A stretch of DNA of 64,000 bases from Pelagomonas calceolata (taxonomy: Eukaryota), in assembly GCA_918797485.1 (NCBI GenBank), contig CAKKNE010000001.1:4588001-4652000 (forward strand), given 5' to 3'. Made by a program: the position numbers and the translations under genes. The number at the start of each line of letters is the position of its first letter. Position 1 is the stretch's first letter. The notes beneath the pieces were generated by a model. The model had not been told where the DNA came from. It made no database searches and saw only the letters and a program-made list of their open reading frames with translations. This document shows, in pieces, positions 10,140 to 36,033 of the stretch.

Positions 10140-10760
10140 CTACCCGAGTACCGTCTGCATCTGGCACTTCGTGCCGTAGTAGCCCGAGAAGCATTTGCAG
10201 AGGCCCGAGTCGTAGTCGCACAATCCTCTTCCCGAGCAGTCCCGGCCCTTCGTGTTGCCCATGCCCGAGAGGATGTCCGTGCCCGACGGGCACTCCTGGA
10301 GGCTACAGTCGGGGCCACGGAATCCGAGATCGCAGACGCACCCCACGTGCTTCATGGCGTCCCAGGGCGTCGAGTAGACCGTGCCCGCTTCCGAGGCGAG
10401 CTGCTTCTGCGTGTAGCAGATGCCGCGGTCCGAGCAGTCGTTCGGGCAGGAAGTGCGCTCGCACGCGATGCCCTCGTAGCCGTCGAAGCAGTCGCACTCG
10501 CCGGACTTGCGGTCGCAGGAGCCCTGGTTGGAGCACTCGGCCATGCCGTGGACGTCGTTGTGGCCGGCGACGGGGTACTTGACCCAGGCCGTGTCCTTGG
10601 GGCACGTGCGCTCCGAGCAGTCGGCGGCCTGCCAGGCCGTGTCGTTGTTCGGGCGGAGGTGGCAGGTGCAGCGGTCGTCGGCGCCGCACGAGCCGTGGCC
10701 GGAGCAGCCGTTCGGGCAGTAGGCGTAGGCCGAGGCGGCGAGGAGGAGGAGCTTGTACAT
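10140..10760 (-). CDS. Secreted Cys-rich EGF/tenascin-like protein, resembling the stramenopile Sig/Ocm mastigoneme (flagellar hair) family
   Basis: Signal peptide [13 protein letters not shown] and four EGF-like units ([71 protein letters not shown]). Strong GC3 bias. Confidence 0.75.
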
Positions 10761-11624: not shown

Positions 11625-12384
11625 ATGGCATCGGTCGCCGAGCTCCTCCCTAGAGCCGCGCGCCTGAAGTATGAATTAGAAGTGCAGCTACGAGCGGTCG
11701 AGCAGGGCGCCGGCGACGCGGGCGACTGCGGCATGGGTCTGCGCGAGCTCTTCACGCAGATTAACACGCTGCGCCAGTTGCTCAACGCGGAGCGGCCCGA
11801 GCGGCGCAATCTCTGGAAGGTCAAGATTGACGAATTGGGCCACGAGGCGCAGTTCCTCTCGAACGATTTGAGGAGGGTCACGAACTTCCACCAGCACCAA
11901 CGGGAACGGGACTCGCTCTTCCGGCGGCGGGCCGGGGCGGCGCCGTCGTCGGCCCACGACGATTTGTTAGAGGCCGAGGACAGCTACGCGCGGTCGGGGA
12001 ACCAGGTCGACCGCGGCGTCCCGTGACGTTCCGCTCATGGAGGTGGTGAATTGGACCGCGCGTCGCCGCGATGGCGTGGAGGTGGTGGAAAAGGCACCGG
12101 CACGCCATCGCCGCGACGACGCACCGCCGCGTCCTCACGAGCGTGCCACGCAGGTCGACGAGCTCATGGAGACCGGCCGCGCGTCGCTCGATTCATTGCG
12201 GGCGCAGCGCGAGCGGCTCAAGAACACGCACCGGAATGCGTTAGATATGATCAACAAGCTCGGGCTCTCGGACACGGTCATGAAGCTGATCAACTCGCGG
12301 AACCGGCAGGACCGCAAGATCGTGGTCGGCGGCTTCGTGTTCTTGTTCGTGCTGTTCTACCTGTGCATGCGGTGGCGCGGGTAA
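11625..12384 (+). CDS. Golgi Qb-SNARE of the membrin/GOSR2/Bos1 family (2 exons; intron 12006-12153)
   Basis: Two ORFs join in frame across a GT...CAG intron (SGNQ|VDELMETG). SNARE helix LRAQRERLKNTHRNALDMINKLGLSDTVMKLI, then RQDRKI and a C-terminal TM segment. Confidence 0.85.
12006..12153 (+). mobile_element. 148-nt intron, probably a diverged introner-related element
   Basis: GTCGAC is repeated at the donor and directly after the acceptor. The end CCACGCAG resembles the introner end CCACACAG. It contains the introner core GATGGCGTGGAGG and its complement CACGCCATCG. Confidence 0.55.
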
Positions 12385-13098
12385 GTACGTGTGTGTTGTA
12401 GTCGCGGTGCGCGCGCGCGCCCCGGCCCGACGGCGCGGAGGCCGGCGCCACCGCTCCCGGGCGCCAGGTCCTCTCCGCGGGCATCGTCTCCGCGGGGCCG
12501 TGCGAGCCCTGAATTCAAGCAGGTGCGGGTCCTTCAGTCTAGGGGCGGATCCCGACGCACGGCCTCGTGGCGCGGAACGGGGAGGCCCTCTAAGAGTATG
12601 TCCTAGACTCGTAAAATGGAGATTAGCGCGAGGAGAGCCTACGCGCGGCTTCTTCGGCGGCGGCGCGCTTCTTCGGGCGTTGCGTCTCCTCGGTGGCGGC
12701 GCGGCCGCGTTTCTGGCGCGCGCGCGGCTTTGCCGGCGCGGCCTTCTTGATGCGTTTGGGAACGGTGCGCAGGACCTTAATTAGCGCTGAGATTTTTTGG
12801 AGAGAGCAGAATCGATAATCTATGTGATTGTGGTTAGCGAGAGCGAGGGAAAAAGCGTGCGGGTTCCCTGGCTTGGCGCTCCCCCACAGGCGCGGGAGGG
12901 AACGGCGTGGTGCATCTGTCCCTGCAACGCCACGATCGTGCTCGACGGCGGCGGGGGCGGCGGCGGCGTTGGCGGCCCGGCGGCGCCCGACGAGTGGGAG
13001 CCCGAGGAGGAGTGGCTCCGCAACTACATGCGCAACGTGAAGATGCACCGCGGCTGATTCTTCTGGGACATAGGACTACGAGATAGGACTACTAGTCT

Positions 13099-13145
13099 GG
13101 GAGTTTTAAAATCAAAAGCAGCGCATGCTCCGTCACGCAACTCCC
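13099..13145 (-). promoter_or_regulatory. Candidate SECIS element (compact, non-canonical)
   Basis: Minus strand reads GGGAGTT-GC-GTGAC-GGAGCA-TGCGC-TGCTTT-TGAT-TTTAA-AACTCCC: a 7-bp helix I, a GUGA/GA core and a short helix II, immediately 3' of the stop of a gene with an in-frame catalytic TGA. Lacks the apical AAR motif. Confidence 0.5.
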
Positions 13146-13149
13146 GTAT

Positions 13150-14802
13150 CTAGAGGCGCCCCCTCGCGCCGGGACTCAGGTAGGAGACGTAGTATCGCTT
13201 CGCCGCGTCGAGCATCTCGCCCTCGGGGCAGATCGACTCCTGGCACGACGCTCGGTCGCGGATGGCACGCGTCCACGCGGCCAATGAGTCGAAGGCGCGA
13301 AGAATGTCACCTTCGAAGTCGATGCCGCGGAAGTATGGCCTGCGTGGAAGGTGATGTGAACGGCGTCGACGCGAGCTGCCCGACACCGCACCCGACAGCG
13401 TGACGAAGAAGCGCTGGACCCACGGCGCGGCGACGCATTCCGCGAAGCTAAAATCGTCGCCGAGCAGGAACGGCGCTCTATCGAGCAGCTCGTCGACCGC
13501 CGCGAGCCGGTCGACGAAAAGAGCGCGTCGCTCCTCCGCCTGAGCGTCGCTCGAAGCCCGCAGCAGATCGTAGTACGTCGTCTCGACGTCGGCCCAGCGC
13601 GCCAGGAAGCGTTCTATCCTCTCGAGATCGTCCGGCGTGCGCGGATACAGCTCCGGACCGCCGACGTACTCAGCGATGTACCTCGCCACAACGGTACTTT
13701 CGATGACGAGCTCCTGACCGTGTTCCAACAGCGGGACGAGGGCCGTGCCGGAGCCCACCCGTTTGTACTTTTCAACAAATTCCGCAGGCTTGGCCTTGAG
13801 GTCGATGATCCGGTGGTCGAACTGGATATTCTTTTCTAACAACGCGATCCAGGCCCTTTGCGCGAAGGGTCATACGCCGCTATTCCACAGCGCCACCTTG
13901 CCGCTCGCCTTTTCTTTGATCGCGTCCGTGCCGTCCACGAATCTAGCCTCGACGTTGTATTCCCTCGACTCGTCCAGTGTTTTGATTCCGTTGCTCGTGT
14001 CGAGCAGCACTCTCCGCGTCGTCCGCGTCGAGACGTCGATGTCTAGATCCGAAGCCGCCGCAGCTGCGACGACGGTCGCGACGTCGTCCACGGACGACGG
14101 TGGCGTGAGACTGAGCTTCGTGACTAAATCCTCGCCGCGGTAGCCCACGCTGCCGATCGCTTTATTCGCATCCCTCGCAAAGCGCGCGAAGGGGTTGTCG
14201 ACGGCCTTGATGCGTGCCGAGCCCGGTTCGACGACCTCGTGCGGGCACACCACGACGGCGTCGGCGCCAAAATTCCGCACGGCGGCATCGAGCGCGTCGG
14301 CCTTGCCTTCAAAATACCCCGGGATGCCTCCCGCGAGGCCGTTCTCGGCGTCCGCAGCGACGCCGACGAGGACGTATCGGCCGACGCCGGCCTCCTTGGC
14401 AGCCTTCGCTATGGCTTCGTTCGGCGGGCCGTTCTTCGCGCGGTACTCCTCCTGATCCTGGGGACTGTACGACGCAAATAGAACAGGGATGTCGCCCGTG
14501 CCCGTCGGCGAGGCCTTGGCGCCCGTGAAGCCGCCCACGCAGCTTATGCAGGCGCCGGCGCCGTCCAGCGCGGCGGCGATATTGTCGTTGCCGGCGTCGG
14601 CGGCGACCCAGTCCACCTGGTCCATCCAGGGCTCGGCGTCCGCCGGCCGGCCGGAGCGGCTCACGGACGTGACGGCGACGCCTTTCGCGGCGAGCGTTTT
14701 GCAGACGGCTTTGCCGATGAATCCGCTGCCTCCAATCACGCATGTCTTCAGCGCTGCTGCCGTCGTCAAGACCGCTAGGACCGCGCATCGCAACATCATC
14801 AT
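13150..14802 (-). CDS. Probable selenoprotein: signal peptide + NAD(P)-binding Rossmann (SDR/epimerase-like) domain fused to an omega/DHAR-type glutathione S-transferase with Sec at the active site (~531 aa; intron 13340-13396)
   Basis: GGSGFIG nucleotide-binding motif. The TGA at 13872-13870 is followed in frame by PFAQRAWIALLEK, then the GST motifs VPLLE, ESTVVARYI and PFLLGDDFSFAE. The downstream ORF has no ATG start of its own ahead of the GST motifs. Confidence 0.85.
13340..13396 (-). other. 57-nt stop-free 3n GT-AG intron in the GST domain
   Basis: GTCGGG...CTTCCACGCAG. Removal converts VTL-SGAVSGSSRRRRSHHLPRR-PYFRG into VTLPYFRG. Confidence 0.7.
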
Positions 14803-15107: not shown

Positions 15108-15848
15108 TCAGTCCAGGATCTCGTCAAGTTCATCGAACGACGGGAAGAACTTGGGCGTCACCTGCTTGTACGCCCGGTAGGCCGGGTGGATGCGCTCGAG
15201 CTCCTTTTCCTCGTATGCCGACTTGGCGTCGAGCAGCAAGTACAGGAGAAACACGACCAGCAGGCGCTGGAAGCTTTCGGTCGCTACGGAAAGACCCCCC
15301 GCCGCAACAAGTAACCCCCCGTAAATCGGATGTCGCACGTACGAAAACGCGCCCGTCGTCTTGAGCTCGTTGCCCTCGACCGGCGCGGCGAATGGCGTCA
15401 AGTTCCCCGCACCCAGATCAAGCACGCCCTTGGCGATGGCGCCGATTCCCGCCACGACCAAGCCCGGGCCCAGCAGCGTCTCGATGGCGCCGCCGACGAC
15501 CGGCACGTCTCCGACCAAGAGCAGGAGGAGCAACGCGGCCTGCCCGGCCACGTACACGATGCTCGGGCCGGACTGCTCGACCTGGACGTTGCTCTTCACG
15601 CTGTCCACGTATTCCTGCGCGGCGTCCCGCACGTTCGACTCCGTGCCGCGGGCAGCCATGCGTTGCGTGAAGTCTTGCAGCATGTTCGTTTCGACCTCGT
15701 CGACGGACTGCTCCGGGGCGTCCAACGGTGCCGGCGCCGGCGGTGCTTCCTCCAAATCCGCCCTGAGGGAGAGCACCGGCTGCTTTATCCTAAGTGCTGG
15801 CGCGAAGGCTGCTGCACCAGCGATGAATAATGCGCTGCGCAGCATCAT
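15108..15848 (-). CDS. Plastid-targeted ICMT/PEMT-family membrane methyltransferase
   Basis: AAAFAP bipartite targeting motif. LKTTGAFSYVRHPIYGG and EEKELERIHPAYRAYKQVTPKFFP are family signatures. Confidence 0.85.
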   Translation of the reverse strand: MMLRSALFIAGAAAFAPALRIKQPVLSLRADLEEAPPAPAPLDAPEQSVDEVETNMLQDFTQRMAARGTESNVRDAAQEYVDSVKSNVQVEQSGPSIVYVAGQAALLLLLLVGDVPVVGGAIETLLGPGLVVAGIGAIAKGVLDLGAGNLTPFAAPVEGNELKTTGAFSYVRHPIYGGLLVAAGGLSVATESFQRLLVVFLLYLLLDAKSAYEEKELERIHPAYRAYKQVTPKFFPSFDELDEILD

Positions 15849-20216: not shown

Positions 20217-21814
20217 TTACTCGCCGGCCGCCGCCCGCAGCCGCTCCCAGTGCGCGACGGCCGCGCCGACGAGCGCGTAGGCGTCGTGCGTGCCGTCGGC
20301 GCAGTTGAAACAGAGCGTGGCCTGGCCGCCGACGGTGGACAAAGCAGCTCCGACGGCTACACCGGGCGGCGGCGGCAGGAACGGCACGACGCGCTTCACC
20401 GGCCGGCCGCAGATCGTCAGGGCGACGGGCGGGCCCCGCACATTTGTGAGGGCCACGGCGCACCCGCCCGCCGACGCCCGCAGCGACGCGGGCACCCACG
20501 CCCTCGGGAGGCACCGGCCCGCGAGCCGGGCCGCGTGGTAGGCCACGACGGCCCGGGCGCCGCCGCGCAGCGCGCCGCCCACGCCGTCGCGGACCCGTCT
20601 CAGGTGCGCGGCCTCGTCGCGCCCGGGCAGGGGCAGCCGCGCAACGACCGCGCCGATATGATTGCCCACGTCCACACCGGGCGGCAACGCGCCGCCATAA
20701 AGGTGCACCGGCACGGCGCACGCCACCGCGTCTCTCGAAACGGACGTCCGCAGCGCGGCCGCGACCAGCGCCGCGTAGAGGTCGTTGACGGTCGCGCCGG
20801 GCGCCAGCTTCTTCGCGACGCGCTTGAGCAGCGCGACGTCGGCGAAGTCCGACGCCCACGCGACGGTCCGCGGGCCCCGCCGCCGCGGCGGGGGCCGCGG
20901 CGCCGCGACGACCATCCACAACGACGCCAGCACGGCCCGGAGCAGGCGCAGCGACATGACGAGCGGCCCGAACATCACACGCAGCAGGCGCGCCAGCCGG
21001 CTCCGCCGCCGCCGCCGGGGCCCCTGCCTCAGCAGCGCGTCGATTTCCTCGCGCTGGTCCGACAGATTGCCGAACAGGGCCCCGAACGACGCGCCGTCGG
21101 CGATGCAGTGGTGCGACCGCAGGAGGACGTCCGTGCCCGCGCCGCGCGGCCAGACGAGCGCCTCCCACCAGGGCCGCTTCTCCAGCGTGCCCCTTAAAGG
21201 TAGGTCGAGGACCCTGGCGATCGTCCTTGGTAAATCCATCGTCGGCCGCGCCTCCATGACCTGTGTGGAAATCAACCAGTGCGTCGGGTGCACAAAACTT
21301 CACGAAGTCATTTCTCGGCGATGACGTGGCCGCAAGGTCGAGCGGCGAGGAACCGGCATCGCCACGCCATCGATCAGGCATCGCGTCGATGACGTGGAGG
21401 ACGACTCGATTGTCAACTCTGAACGCGTCGTAAAATTTTGATTTCCACACAGTCCATGACGACGGGCGTCGCCTCCTCCGTCGTCAGATCCTCGACGAAC
21501 TCCAGCCGCTCGGCGTCGACGCGGCTCCGGAGGCGCGGCGACGCCGGCGCGACGCGGTCCGCGAGCGCGCGCTCGAGGTCCCTGGCCGCGAGCGGCGCGC
21601 CGCCCAGCTCGAGCAGCACGGCGGGCACCGACGGCGCGTCCCGCGTCTCCGACAGCAGCGCGAAGCGGCCGATCGGCGTGAGCCGCCGCCGGACCGCGTC
21701 GCAGTCCGTCGGCGGCGCGTCGCAGTCCGTCGGCGGCGGCGCCGCGAGCGACGCCGCGCACGCGCCGGCGGCGTACCTGGCCGCGGCCGTCCAGGGGACG
21801 CGGGCGGCCCACAT
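20217..21814 (-). CDS. Wax ester synthase/diacylglycerol acyltransferase (WS/DGAT) family (2 exons; intron 21261-21460)
   Basis: Catalytic HHCIADG, plus ATVND and TNVRGP motifs. Exons join as EEATPV|VMEARPT once the introner is removed. Confidence 0.85.
21261..21452. mobile_element. Introner element copy 1 (192 bp, non-autonomous TIR transposon)
   Basis: TIR CTGTGTGGAAATC...GATTTCCACACAG. Perfect 8-bp TSD TCCATGAC at 21253-21260 and 21453-21460. Confidence 0.93.
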
Positions 21815-23366: not shown

Positions 23367-24197
23367 TTAGCGCCTCGGCAGCACGTGCACGTGCGCGTGG
23401 GGCACGCTCTGGCCCGCGGCGATTCCGTCCTGCACGGCCACGTTCGCGCCCGTCGCGCCGTACTCCTCCGTGATCATCGCGTGGACCCGCCGCGCGGCGC
23501 GCCAGAGGTCTCTATGCAACTCCTCGTCCATCTCGCCGAGCGTCGGCACGACGGCCTTGGGCACGACAAGCACGTGGCCCTCGACCAGCGGCTTGAGGTT
23601 GACGAGGGCCCGGCAGGTCCCGGACTCGAAGAAGACCTGCGACGCGTCGACCGCGAACGGGCCGAACGTCACGTCGGCGGGCTCCGGGAACGGCTCGCCC
23701 CGCCGCCGGTAGCGCGCCGCCTCCGCGGCCATGTCCTCGGCGCTCCGCGGTTTGCGCGCGGCGTCGTCGGGCACGTCGAGCGTCACCGGCGCGCCGCACG
23801 CGTCGAGCGGCGTCCAGCCGTCGATGAGGCCGTAGATCTCGTCGTTGTTCGCGAGGTCGCCCTTCACGCGCGGCACGACGTGCGCGTGGACGTGGGCCAC
23901 GGGCTGGCCCGCGGACGTTCCGTCCTTGAGGGCCACGTTGAAGGCGTCCGCCGCTGGTGTGAGTTGCTGCGCGCGCCGGATCGCTACCGCTAAATCATCA
24001 CCCTCCTCCTCCGTGAGGTCGGCGTAGCGCTCGACGGGCCGCTTCGGCGCCACGACGACGTGGCCCGGCAGCACGGGCCGCAGGTCCCGGACGACGACGG
24101 ATAGCGGCGTCTCGAGCGCGATTTGCGCCGGCCGCAGCGCGACGGGGCCCAGGCGAAGCGCGTGTGACGCGGCGGCCATCGTCGCCAGGCGGCGCAT
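23367..24197 (-). CDS. FHIT-like HIT hydrolase with two tandem HIT domains
   Basis: Two copies of (R/K)P(V/L)xxGHVxVxPK and the triads HVHAHVVPR and HAHVHVLPR. Likely start MRRLATM at 24197. Confidence 0.85.
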   Translation of the reverse strand: MRRLATMAAASHALRLGPVALRPAQIALETPLSVVVRDLRPVLPGHVVVAPKRPVERYADLTEEEGDDLAVAIRRAQQLTPAADAFNVALKDGTSAGQPVAHVHAHVVPRVKGDLANNDEIYGLIDGWTPLDACGAPVTLDVPDDAARKPRSAEDMAAEAARYRRRGEPFPEPADVTFGPFAVDASQVFFESGTCRALVNLKPLVEGHVLVVPKAVVPTLGEMDEELHRDLWRAARRVHAMITEEYGATGANVAVQDGIAAGQSVPHAHVHVLPRR

Positions 24198-24813
24198 CAA
24201 ATTTTCTTCGTCCTGCGCTTTTTGCAGCAGTGCGGCTCTCGCCGCGACTACGTCTCGCTGCGACGACGTATCGCTGCGACGACGTATCGCTGCGACGCGT
24301 ATGGCCTTTTGTTGCAGTGCAGTGCGCACTCCGTCGGAGACCTCCGCAGCTTTTTCAGCTTTTTCCTGCCAGATCGCTTGATGCGTAATCTGTAGATTTT
24401 CTCGAGAGTCCAAGCACCACCGAACGAGCCTGTTGTGTGTGCAGCTAATGCAAAGACCAGGGCATCTCTCCAAAAGCCTCTCAAGTCGCATCGATGCCGA
24501 GCTCAGCGTAGGGGCAGTCCGGACGATTCCTCCAGACGAATGCACCGGTCCGCGAAGGTCCAAAGCCTTGGAGGGCCAAAAACCCGCCAGGAGGCGCATC
24601 TTACCCATCTTACGTCGTTCGACAACTGAGCGCACGGGTGATACGACGTGGGAACGGTCGACGGCGGTCCCGTCGCGCGGCGCGTGCTGCTGCTGCCTCT
24701 GTCCTGCCAAAGTAGCGGCGCTCAGCCGCCGCAGCCGCGCCAGGGAGCGAAGAAAACAAGGCGCCGAGCCTCTGCCGCCTCCCGCGCGACCCACCGAACG
24801 ACTCAGAGGACGA

Positions 24814-34419: not shown

Positions 34420-36033
34420 CTACCGCGACACGGGCTCCGCGACGGGCTCCGCCGCCGGCTCCGCGGCGGGCCCCTTTCGCGCGGCGGCGAGGCCCGCGCG
34501 GAGGTCCGCGAGGTACGCGTAGTAGGCGTCGGGCCGCCACCGCGCTTCCGTGTACGGCGTGTGCGGCCCGATCAGGTCGCCGCCGCGCGAGAGGAACGGT
34601 CCGACGAGCTTGTCGAGCAGGTGGGGCAGCGAGTTCAGGAGCATGGGCGCCATGAAGCGCTTCGGGATGCAGGCCCACCAGACGAGGCCGCCCATCCAGA
34701 CGTGGCCCGCGCCCGACAGGCGCCAGCTCAGGAAGTGCTCCCAGAGCGCGTCCGGGAGCCGGAAGAAGCCCGTGAAGAAGTCGCGCAGCTCGCGCGGGTT
34801 CAGCACGCAGAGCAGCTCGAACCCAAAGTGCATGAAGTCCCGCTGCCGCCGGTCGTCCGCGGGCCACGTCGCGGCCCAGGCCGCCTCGGAGAGCGCGTCG
34901 AAGGCGTCTCCGTCGGTGTCGCCGCGCGCCGCCACGCGCCGCGCCTCCGCCAGCCGGGGGTGCGCCGCGAGCGCCGCGCCGACGCGCGGCGCGACTTCCA
35001 AGGCCCGCGCGACCATGTAGCCCGACGCGGGGTGGACGCACGACGCCGTCGCGCCGCATCCCACAACACGCTGCGGCACGACGGGGTCCATGCCGCCCAT
35101 GGGGATGGCCGCGCGCTCGCTCTCGAGGACCTCGAAGTGCTCGATGCCGTACGAAACAGATAGTCTTTTTCGAAGGCGCGCCTCGAGGTCCGCCGAGTCC
35201 GCGCCCGGTCTAGATACAAGCACCGTCTCCTCGAAGAAGATCTCGGTGTCGGAGATGGGCATGACGTACATGAACGTGGGAAAGCGCTCGTTCCGCTTCC
35301 TCATTTCATCGTCGCCGCCGATGTACTCGTCCCGATAGTCCATGAGCACCAACTTGTCGAGGGGGAAGGGGTGCTTCTCCACTTTGAGGAGCGCGCCGTA
35401 GGTCACCTGGTAGCCGGGGTCGAACGCGACGTCGTGTTTTACAAATTTCCTCCTAAATCCAGTAGCGTCGACGACGACGCAGGCGCGGACGGAGGAACCG
35501 TCGTCGAATTCCACCGCGGTGCCCTCGACGTCCACCGCACGCTTCGTCAGGAGCGTCGCGCCGCCCGCGGCGCACGCGTCGACCAGGCGCCGCTTCAGCC
35601 GTTTCCGATCCACGCGGCCGTAGGGCCGCTGGAGCGTGACGTTCTCCAGCGCGCCCGGCGCCGCGTCCTCGAAGACGACCGAGGACTCCGTCCAGACGAC
35701 GTCGACGCAGTCGTCGAAGCCGAGCGGTTCGACCTCGTCGATCCAGACGCCGTAGTTGTTCGGCCAGTCCCGCCCGAGCGCGGGGTCCGCGACGCACACT
35801 TTTAATCCGCGAGCGGCGCACTCGGCGGCCGTCGCGAGGCCCGCCGGGCCGGCGCCGCAGATGGCGACGTCGTAGACGTCGTCGTCATGCTGCGGCGCTG
35901 CGGCGCCGTTAGCCGGCGCACTCTTGAGGGCGGCGAGCCGCGGTCGGCCCGTCAAGGTGGTGCGCGGCCCTGGCGTCAGCGGAGCTGCAGCGGCAAGCAG
36001 AGTCGCCGCGGCGACCAGATGTCGTCGCCGCAT
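34420..36033 (-). CDS. LCYB: Lycopene beta-cyclase, plastid-targeted
   Basis: FAD motif DVAICGAGPAG; WPNNYGVWIDE, MDYRD, PTFMYVMP, FFEETVLV, VHPASGYMV. Confidence 0.9.
   Translation of the reverse strand: MRRRHLVAAATLLAAAAPLTPGPRTTLTGRPRLAALKSAPANGAAAPQHDDDVYDVAICGAGPAGLATAAECAARGLKVCVADPALGRDWPNNYGVWIDEVEPLGFDDCVDVVWTESSVVFEDAAPGALENVTLQRPYGRVDRKRLKRRLVDACAAGGATLLTKRAVDVEGTAVEFDDGSSVRACVVVDATGFRRKFVKHDVAFDPGYQVTYGALLKVEKHPFPLDKLVLMDYRDEYIGGDDEMRKRNERFPTFMYVMPISDTEIFFEETVLVSRPGADSADLEARLRKRLSVSYGIEHFEVLESERAAIPMGGMDPVVPQRVVGCGATASCVHPASGYMVARALEVAPRVGAALAAHPRLAEARRVAARGDTDGDAFDALSEAAWAATWPADDRRQRDFMHFGFELLCVLNPRELRDFFTGFFRLPDALWEHFLSWRLSGAGHVWMGGLVWWACIPKRFMAPMLLNSLPHLLDKLVGPFLSRGGDLIGPHTPYTEARWRPDAYYAYLADLRAGLAAARKGPAAEPAAEPVAEPVSR

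What the first reader, a model, noticed from the sequence alone, without database searches (positions are those of the whole stretch)
13150..14802. Hidden selenoprotein: Rossmann-fold domain fused through an in-frame UGA to a Sec-containing omega/DHAR-type GST
Seen: the 310-aa NAD(P)-binding ORF ends ...KVALWNSGV-TGA (13872-13870) and the same frame continues PFAQRAWIALLEK into a complete GST fold. Established: omega/lambda/DHAR GSTs have a catalytic CP(F/Y)AQR motif, and pelagophytes such as Aureococcus have very large selenoproteomes. Inference: the TGA encodes selenocysteine (UPFAQR), giving one ~531-aa signal-peptide-bearing redox fusion that gene callers would split or truncate. If UGA decoding depends on selenium, Se limitation would yield only the Rossmann half, a possible Se-dependent switch. 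I do not know this domain combination from elsewhere.
Basis: partly seen in the sequence, partly recalled or inferred. Interest (0 to 1): 0.9.

Follow-up and report, generated by a model that had tools for sequence, protein, structure and literature searches.

The report
Fused algal selenoprotein with miniature SECIS
In a marine alga, one messenger RNA joins a reductase-like gene to a glutathione-transferase gene across a UGA "stop" codon that is likely read as selenocysteine, and the likely recoding signal is an RNA hairpin only half the standard height, which published search rules would discard.

Summary
Observation confirmed. A 310-aa signal-peptide + NDUFA9-like atypical SDR frame runs through TGA 13872-13870 into a cysteinyl-type GST (closest solved: Leishmania TDR1, poplar lambda GSTs). 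RNA reads show one spliced transcript across the TGA, with no variant letter; the product would be 531 aa. TGA stands at the catalytic Cys column in 7 of 7 metagenome loci covering it. Sec-GSTs are already published for algae; the SDR fusion is not in what I read, and looks recent: a 79-80% identical SDR relative is unfused, and diatom GST orthologues stand alone. No conserved canonical SECIS lies downstream. Instead, 13 nt after the stop sits a conserved compact element: GUGAC/UGAU core, 6-bp helix II, 5-6-nt loop, no apical AA. It fails SECISearch3's limits, is unique in the window by a post-hoc pattern, and in other alleles overlaps the stop codon or lies inside the ORF. Sec insertion, the hairpin's function and the selenium switch are untested. 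This scan had not noted this protein before; one unchecked note reports a short-stem SECIS in a giant virus. New variant of a known kind.

The parts
14749..14802 (-). Predicted N-terminal signal peptide (about residues 1-18), judged by eye; plastid targeting inferred
   Evidence: Sequence: hydrophobic stretch ending AAA-L. Unfused SDR relatives have the same short leader. Stand-alone diatom GST orthologues have a signal peptide plus Ser-rich leader. No predictor was run.
13903..14748 (-). Atypical SDR (Rossmann) domain, NDUFA9-like, with GGSGFIG, SRSGR and YFEGK (YxxxK) motifs
   Evidence: Pfam NAD_binding_10; profile vs PDB, best hits NDUFA9-type subunits E=7e-20; AF2 model pLDDT 89.8; Foldseek NDUFA9/NSDHL/TIP30
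13870..13872 (-). In-frame TGA, codon 311, at the catalytic Cys column of cysteinyl GSTs; likely selenocysteine
   Evidence: TGA in 7 of 7 loci covering it; aligns with the C of CP(Y/F)AQR in poplar lambda GSTs and CPF in TDR1; unchanged in RNA reads
13153..13902 (-). GST domain of the cysteinyl (TDR1/lambda/DHAR/omega) group; its first strand KVALWN lies upstream of the TGA
   Evidence: Pfam, PDB sequence search, tree
13340..13396 (-). 57-nt GT..AG in-frame intron; absent in loci L001, L002, L005 and L009
   Evidence: Spliced joints in RNA; allele comparison
13150..13152 (-). True stop codon TAG
13099..13145 (-). Compact SECIS-like element: helix I GGGAGTT (13145-13139) with AACTCCC (13105-13099); 5' core GTGAC 13136-13132; 6-bp helix II 13131-13126 with 13120-13115; loop 13125-13121; 3' core TGAT 13114-13111; no apical AA
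   Evidence: Fold, conservation in L001, L002, L009 and partly L005, pair count, rarity, inside the transcript

Best explanation
This is one spliced, expressed gene in which an atypical SDR is joined in frame to a cysteinyl-type glutathione transferase, with UGA311 likely decoded as selenocysteine under the direction of a predicted miniature SECIS hairpin just behind the stop codon. Inferred origin: a recent rearrangement joined a complete SDR gene to the first strand of a stand-alone algal Sec-GST, whose own targeting leader was lost, so both domains now share one promoter and one signal peptide, probably for the plastid. Inferred chemistry: Sec acts like the catalytic Cys of lambda/omega GSTs and TDR1. 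It attacks a glutathione conjugate or mixed disulfide (or reduces dehydroascorbate), forms Se-SG and is recycled by GSH. The SDR binds NADP(H) as a largely independent domain. Because termination at UGA311 would release a complete SDR plus 9 residues, recoding efficiency, and so selenium supply, would set the ratio of SDR-only to SDR-GST protein.
For: Shown: one transcript across an unedited TGA. TGA in 7 of 7 covering loci, and in frame with the SDR in the 6 long enough to tell, at about 84-94% DNA identity to the window. No Met between residues 60 and 511, so the GST cannot start at an AUG after the TGA. Both halves show codon-level constraint against L001, L002 and L005: SDR 39/11, 27/10, 30/9 and GST 31/23, 20/17, 24/31 synonymous/non-synonymous changed codons. 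TGA is an ordinary stop in 5 of 14 frames checked. In a tree of 57 hand-picked rows, the 18 rows outside the algal clade all have Cys. Inside the 39-row clade (100/98), 25 records lack the catalytic motif (mostly starting just after it), 6 have W, 6 C, 1 L, plus this gene. The NCBI Skeletonema model skips exactly the 28 residues holding this column, where a JGI record of the same cluster has W; this fits a TGA in the diatom orthologue. Unfused SDR relatives (P0006, 79-80% identical; P0007-P0010) end where the GST begins. The compact element is the only match of its pattern in 128 kb of both strands, 2 of 20000 local shuffles give one, and its core is invariant while the DNA right after it diverges. 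Established: GST is a known algal selenoprotein family (PMC7539508, PMC5917014).
Against: No protein-level evidence of Sec. The organism's Sec machinery could not be checked (no genome held). The element fails published SECIS limits (stem2 below 7, loop below 8, no AA) and Rfam found no SECIS. Its folding energy is unremarkable (z -0.7 to -1.8). Covariation rests on 4 sequences in about 2 haplotype classes: one A-U to G-C double change, not significant (82 of 500 shuffles), and helix II of L009 needs a bulge. The pattern was drawn from the element itself. The W residues in diatom records are only inferred to be TGA read under another code; I saw no DNA for them. In the three raw runs, depth over the SDR 5' half (1-21 in bins 14147-14783) is lower than over the GST exon bins (27-65), which fits poly(A) 3' bias but does not exclude shorter transcripts. 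Nothing shows that the two domains act together.
Confidence: 0.72

Rival explanations
1. UGA311 is Sec, but the compact hairpin is not the SECIS. Recoding uses another signal (coding-region element, longer 3' UTR isoform), and the hairpin is a kink-turn or 3'-end element with another job.
For: The element breaks the length rules and lacks the apical AA said to be essential in mammals. Loose+-type hits occur in the coding region of the window allele. The core also reads as a generic kink-turn (own knowledge).
Against: The loose+ hits differ between alleles (2 in the window, 3 in L001, 2 in L002, 0 in L009; none shared with the window; none in the 3' UTR). Reads end by about 13055-13145, and the next gene converges 92 nt after the stop, leaving no room for a canonical SECIS. 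The only such element in the window sits behind the UGA gene.
Confidence: 0.13
2. The domains are functionally coupled: NADPH bound by the SDR feeds a shared pathway with the Sec-GST, for example reduction and deglutathionylation of quinone-type conjugates in the plastid, and the fusion was selected for channelling.
For: Linker of only a few residues; both halves constrained. Atypical SDRs such as Coq11 are tied to quinone synthesis (PMC9483114). Likeness to Coq11/At1g32220 is recalled, not tested.
Against: The fusion is confined to one close cluster; no other fused record among the proteins held or among longer proteins (weak test). No substrate evidence. This is not exclusive of the best explanation: it differs only in why the fusion persists.
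Confidence: 0.15
3. UGA311 is passed by ordinary leaky read-through (Cys, Trp or Arg inserted), or is a real stop with a decaying GST remnant behind it.
For: W stands at this column in 6 tree rows and L in 1. Public annotation stops at the TGA.
Against: TGA, never TAA or TAG, in 7 of 7 loci; exact match to the catalytic Cys column; GST half intact and constrained; SECIS-like core behind the gene; standard-code gene callers avoid the same column in Skeletonema.
Confidence: 0.06

Closest known systems
Algal Sec-containing GST family (Jiang et al. 2020, PMC7539508; Aureococcus GST selenoprotein named in PMC5917014)
   Same: GST fold with UGA at the catalytic position in a marine alga.
   Different: Fusions listed in section 11 of that paper are SELENOM-pVHL, SELENOM-ShKT and GST-MSRA; no SDR-GST. 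I could not compare sequences: the supplement and the Gobler 2011/2013 papers were unreadable.
Cysteinyl GSTs: Leishmania TDR1 (PDB 4ags), poplar GST lambda 1 and 3 (4pqh, 4pqi), DHAR (5d9t), human GSTO1 (1eem)
   Same: CP(F/Y)xxR active-site motif position, cis-Pro VP motif and ES motif.
   Different: Sec in place of Cys, an N-terminal SDR, and a distinct algal clade (WNSGV-U-PFAQR, C-terminal YYVSY).
NDUFA9-like atypical SDRs (complex I 39-kDa subunit; Coq11 and plant Coq11A/B as described in PMC9483114)
   Same: Best PDB profile and fold hits are NDUFA9-type; GxxGxxG and YxxxK present.
   Different: Signal peptide, C-terminal beta-hairpin, fused to a GST. Coq11 orthology was not tested (no reference sequence available).
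Eukaryotic SECIS types I and II (SECISearch3, PMC3753652); GUGA-core SECIS of Ostreococcus (PMC2375036)
   Same: 3' UTR position, helix I, internal loop, RUGAN/NGAN core with G before UGA.
   Different: Helix II 6 bp instead of 10-13 (patterns) or 14-15 (human, PMC2761289); loop 5-6 nt; no apical AA/CC; in other alleles it overlaps the stop codon or lies in the ORF.

Membership tests
Eukaryotic selenoprotein gene | In-frame UGA at a column that is Cys in homologues | tested here: met
Eukaryotic selenoprotein gene | UGA retained in the mature mRNA, with coding constraint after it | tested here: met
Eukaryotic selenoprotein gene | Sec machinery (tRNA-Sec, eEFSec, SBP2, SecS) in the genome | not testable with these tools
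   no genome held
Eukaryotic selenoprotein gene | Selenium found in the protein | not testable with these tools
   needs 75Se or MS
Canonical eukaryotic SECIS (type I/II) | RUGAN ... NGAN core with tandem GA pairs | tested here: met
   GUGAC/UGAU invariant in 4 of 4 full copies
Canonical eukaryotic SECIS (type I/II) | Helix I below the core | tested here: met
   6-7 bp, 91.7% of cells paired, one double change; statistically weak
Canonical eukaryotic SECIS (type I/II) | Helix II of at least 7 bp (filter) or 10-13 bp (patterns) | tested here: not met
   6 bp against limits
Canonical eukaryotic SECIS (type I/II) | Apical loop of at least 8 nt with unpaired AA/AR or CC | tested here: not met
   loop UGCGC / UUCGCG, 5-6 nt, no AA
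Canonical eukaryotic SECIS (type I/II) | More than 51-111 nt downstream of the recoded UGA | tested here: met
   676 nt in the spliced mRNA; limit
Cysteinyl GSTs (lambda/omega/DHAR/TDR1) | GST N- and C-domains with CPx(x)QR-type active site | tested here: met
Cysteinyl GSTs (lambda/omega/DHAR/TDR1) | Assignment to one named class | tested here: inconclusive
   best hits TDR1 and lambda by phmmer, DHAR and omega by profile; the tree held no named references
Cysteinyl GSTs (lambda/omega/DHAR/TDR1) | Deglutathionylation, thioltransferase or DHAR activity | not testable with these tools
   needs an assay
Atypical SDR, NDUFA9-like | Rossmann fold with GxxGxxG; YxxxK | tested here: met
Coq11 / At1g32220 subfamily | Orthology to yeast Coq11 or the Arabidopsis proteins | not tested
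   resemblance recalled; no reference sequence in any call

The most novel reading that the evidence does not exclude
This algal lineage recodes UGA with a minimal SECIS (kink-turn core plus a 6-bp cap, no apical adenosines) that works even when it overlaps the stop codon or is translated. Its selenoproteome is then under-counted by SECIS-first searches and its eEFSec/SBP2 contacts differ from the mammalian model. In this gene, the weak signal also acts as a selenium rheostat between a stand-alone SDR and an SDR-Sec-GST.
Probability: 0.35. Interest if true: 0.82.

Novelty: new variant of a known kind. Interest (0 to 1): 0.6.

Why it matters
The mammalian rule holds that a fixed helix II length and apical adenosines are essential for Sec insertion (PMC2761289). 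A natural eukaryotic SECIS of about 47 nt without either would test that rule directly, give a very small recoding cassette, and imply hidden selenoproteins in abundant ocean picoalgae. The gene itself is mis-annotated in public databases: 13 of 15 listed cluster members end at the Sec column, and the diatom orthologue has lost its active site to a spurious intron. The fusion offers a clean assay of selenium-dependent product ratio in a phytoplankton.

Tried and rejected
Own genome: none held, so no other selenoprotein genes of this organism could be checked for the same short SECIS. Rfam scan of 12300-13900: 3 chance hits, no SECIS. Related loci in prokaryote genomes and viral contigs: none. 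A pattern scan for the element in viral contigs gave 1 hit (L010), inside a coding region, dismissed as chance. First pair count used a structure off by one column and was redone; there MAFFT's gap placement under-counts helix II for the window row. A fused-protein alignment mis-placed the distant SDR rows, so I did not fold the full-length protein. No complex job was sent. Search for longer fused homologues: none (weak). In the metatranscriptome lay 87 variant rows were hidden, so it gives no proof that the TGA is invariant there. NCBIfam gave no family above cut-off. ESM Atlas gave only generic epimerase/NAD-binding clusters. Global TGA reassignment rejected: TGA ends 5 of 14 frames checked. 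Literature searches with no relevant hit: Pelagomonas + selenoprotein, SECIS + diatom + short stem (36), SECIS + helix II + length + shortening (71), SECIS + atypical + apical + stramenopile (74), selenocysteine + omega + glutathione transferase + algae (88), short/compact/minimal/truncated/shorter/unusual SECIS (96; 16 listed, judged mostly from titles and abstract starts).

Full report
OBSERVATION. The minus-strand frame from 14802 reads 310 residues to ...KVALWNSGV, meets TGA at 13872-13870, and continues PFAQRAWIALLEK... to TAG at 13152-13150. Pfam places NAD_binding_10 (E 1.4e-12) before the TGA and GST_N_2 (1.6e-11) and GST_C_2 (1e-7) after it. The host is a marine eukaryotic alga. That it is a pelagophyte is my inference from gene style and relatives, not a tool result; no genome was held.

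TRANSCRIPT. Three raw poly(A) runs of one sample cover the whole gene on the expected strand. They show a single joint, a 57-nt GT..AG intron at 13396-13340 (13, 13 and 17 reads), and no other letter at the TGA at a 3% threshold. One 1834-nt contig of a fourth, probably RNA, run spans 14987-13097 with that intron removed. The spliced frame gives 531 residues with one internal stop at codon 311, and Met only at 1-3, 60 and 511, so the GST cannot start from an AUG after the TGA. A contig from a probable DNA run of another study matches 13830-14212 without difference. Depth over the SDR 5' half is lower than over the GST; 3' bias explains this most simply, but shorter transcripts are not excluded. 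TGA is a normal stop in this genome: it ends 5 of 14 frames I checked.

CONSERVATION OF THE UGA. A metagenome scan gave 9 loci. 7 cover the codon and all 7 have TGA; in the 6 long enough to tell, it is in frame with the SDR. Against three alleles, changed codons are synonymous/non-synonymous 39/11, 27/10, 30/9 in the SDR and 31/23, 20/17, 24/31 in the GST; both halves are constrained, the GST less so. The codon aligns with the catalytic Cys of poplar lambda GSTs and Leishmania TDR1, the best PDB hits; a profile search puts DHAR and GSTO1 first. In a tree of 57 rows (the window plus 56 chosen by hand from 195 other GST hits), all 18 rows outside a 39-row algal clade (100/98) carry Cys. Inside it, 25 records lack the motif, mostly beginning just after it, 6 carry W, 6 C and 1 L. 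W is what a gene caller using TGA=Trp would print (inference). In support, the NCBI Skeletonema marinoi model KAK1742571.1 omits exactly the 28 residues around this column that a JGI record of the same cluster has. So a stand-alone, leader-bearing Sec-GST probably exists in diatoms.

THE FUSION. The SDR half is an NDUFA9-like atypical SDR (profile E 7e-20; model pLDDT 89.8; Foldseek) with GGSGFIG, SRSGR and YFEGK. A basic residue after strand 2 suggests NADP(H) (own knowledge). Of 15 listed members of its 129-member cluster, 13 end at the Sec column and 2 end earlier, at an allele-specific insert. The exact 310-aa truncation is what NCBI, JGI, UniRef and MMETSP hold. A relative at 79-80% identity (P0006 cluster) and more distant ones (P0007-P0010) end right after the last SDR helix. 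Among all proteins held (129 SDR hits, 196 GST hits) only my read-through matched both halves, and a search for longer forms found none (weak). The fusion is therefore recent and narrow, with almost no linker.

THE 3' ELEMENT. Rfam finds no SECIS. My implementation of a loose+-type SECISearch pattern finds only scattered hits, none shared between the window and other alleles and none in the 3' UTR. The space between the stop and the convergent next gene is 92 nt. It holds, 13 nt after the stop, helix I (7 bp), GUGAC, a 6-bp helix II, a 5-nt loop, UGAU and the other arm of helix I. The core and the 5' arm of helix II are identical in the window, L001, L002 and L009, while the DNA beyond diverges. 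Helix I shows one A-U to G-C double change and helix II a G-U to G-C change; with four sequences this is not significant (82 of 500 shuffles). A pattern drawn from the element matches only here in 128 kb, 0.3 times per shuffled window, and in 2 of 20000 local shuffles (post hoc). SECISearch3 discards stem2 below 7 bp and apical loops below 8 nt, and its patterns need 10-13 bp followed by AA, AR or CC. So this is not a member of canonical type I/II, though it likely works like one. Among 47 close GST records, 33 end at a stop before the element, as here; 10 end ...GVV/GVA, where the stop is the 5' core UGA itself (seen as DNA in L001, L002, L005); 2 end ...LRDGAFACF, a reading through the hairpin to the 3' core UGA (inferred from protein); 2 lack the end motif. 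The element survives these rearrangements of the stop, which argues for selection on it.

MECHANISM. Shown: gene anatomy, transcript, conservation, misannotation. Inferred: Sec insertion (about 0.9); the compact hairpin as the signal (about 0.75 given Sec); GSTL/omega-like deglutathionylation or DHAR chemistry through a Se-SG intermediate; plastid location; largely independent domains; Se-dependent product ratio, with mRNA decay as the alternative.

LITERATURE. PMC7539508 (abstract, passages, sections 5 and 11; supplement unreadable) lists GST among 42 algal selenoprotein families and three fusions, none with an SDR. PMC5917014 (passages) names an Aureococcus GST selenoprotein. PMC3753652 (passages, supplement passages), PMC2761289, PMC2375036, PMC2746813, PMC9483114 and PMC6254913 (passages only) gave SECIS rules and Coq11 context. 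Gobler 2011 and 2013 were not held; they may already show this GST clade or short SECIS forms. Ten searches turned up no SDR-GST selenoprotein and no short-stem eukaryotic SECIS in what I saw. This scan had no note on this protein or element; one unchecked note describes a short-stem SECIS in a giant virus.

VERDICT. A real hidden selenoprotein gene, very probably. The Sec-GST is a known kind; the fusion is a new, lineage-limited variant; the miniature SECIS is the part most worth testing. Interest 0.6.

Noticed in passing
window 13340-13396 (-); L006 about 2185-2257 and L007 about 600-672: Intron presence/absence polymorphism within this gene: the window's 57-nt intron is missing in L001, L002, L005 and L009, while L006 and L007 carry a 72-nt GC..AG insert in the SDR half that the window lacks and that resembles window 21259-21292. 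Suggests mobile introner-type elements (family recalled, not tested).
   Followed up: partly
window 12890-13057 (+); L002 1369-2394 (-); L009 about 580-1050: The convergent downstream gene is a scramblase (PF03803) in L002, is shorter in L009, and in the window only its last roughly 50 codons remain, joined to unrelated sequence.
   Followed up: partly
window 15108-15848 (-): Upstream neighbour is a PEMT/ICMT-like membrane methyltransferase with an apparent plastid leader; the order is conserved in L003, L004 and L006.
   Followed up: partly
proteins P0158 and P0161 (Skeletonema marinoi KAK1742571.1, KAK1736177.1): Public GST models lack the whole active-site segment, probably through a spurious intron around an in-frame TGA; likely unrecognised diatom selenoproteins.
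   Followed up: partly
protein P0193: A member of the same GST clade has Leu at the catalytic column (LWNSGV-L-PYAQR); a real loss or an error.
   Followed up: no
L003, L004, L006 starts; proteins P0002-P0005, P0116-P0128: Two unrelated signal-peptide/5' UTR haplotypes (MMxRCAVLAV... and MIKHALL...) occur on otherwise about 90% identical alleles of this gene.
   Followed up: no
window 34420-36033 (-), 23367-24300 (-), 10140-10760 (-): Lycopene cyclase, a two-HIT-domain protein and a teneurin-like EGF protein lie in the window; ordinary.
   Followed up: no
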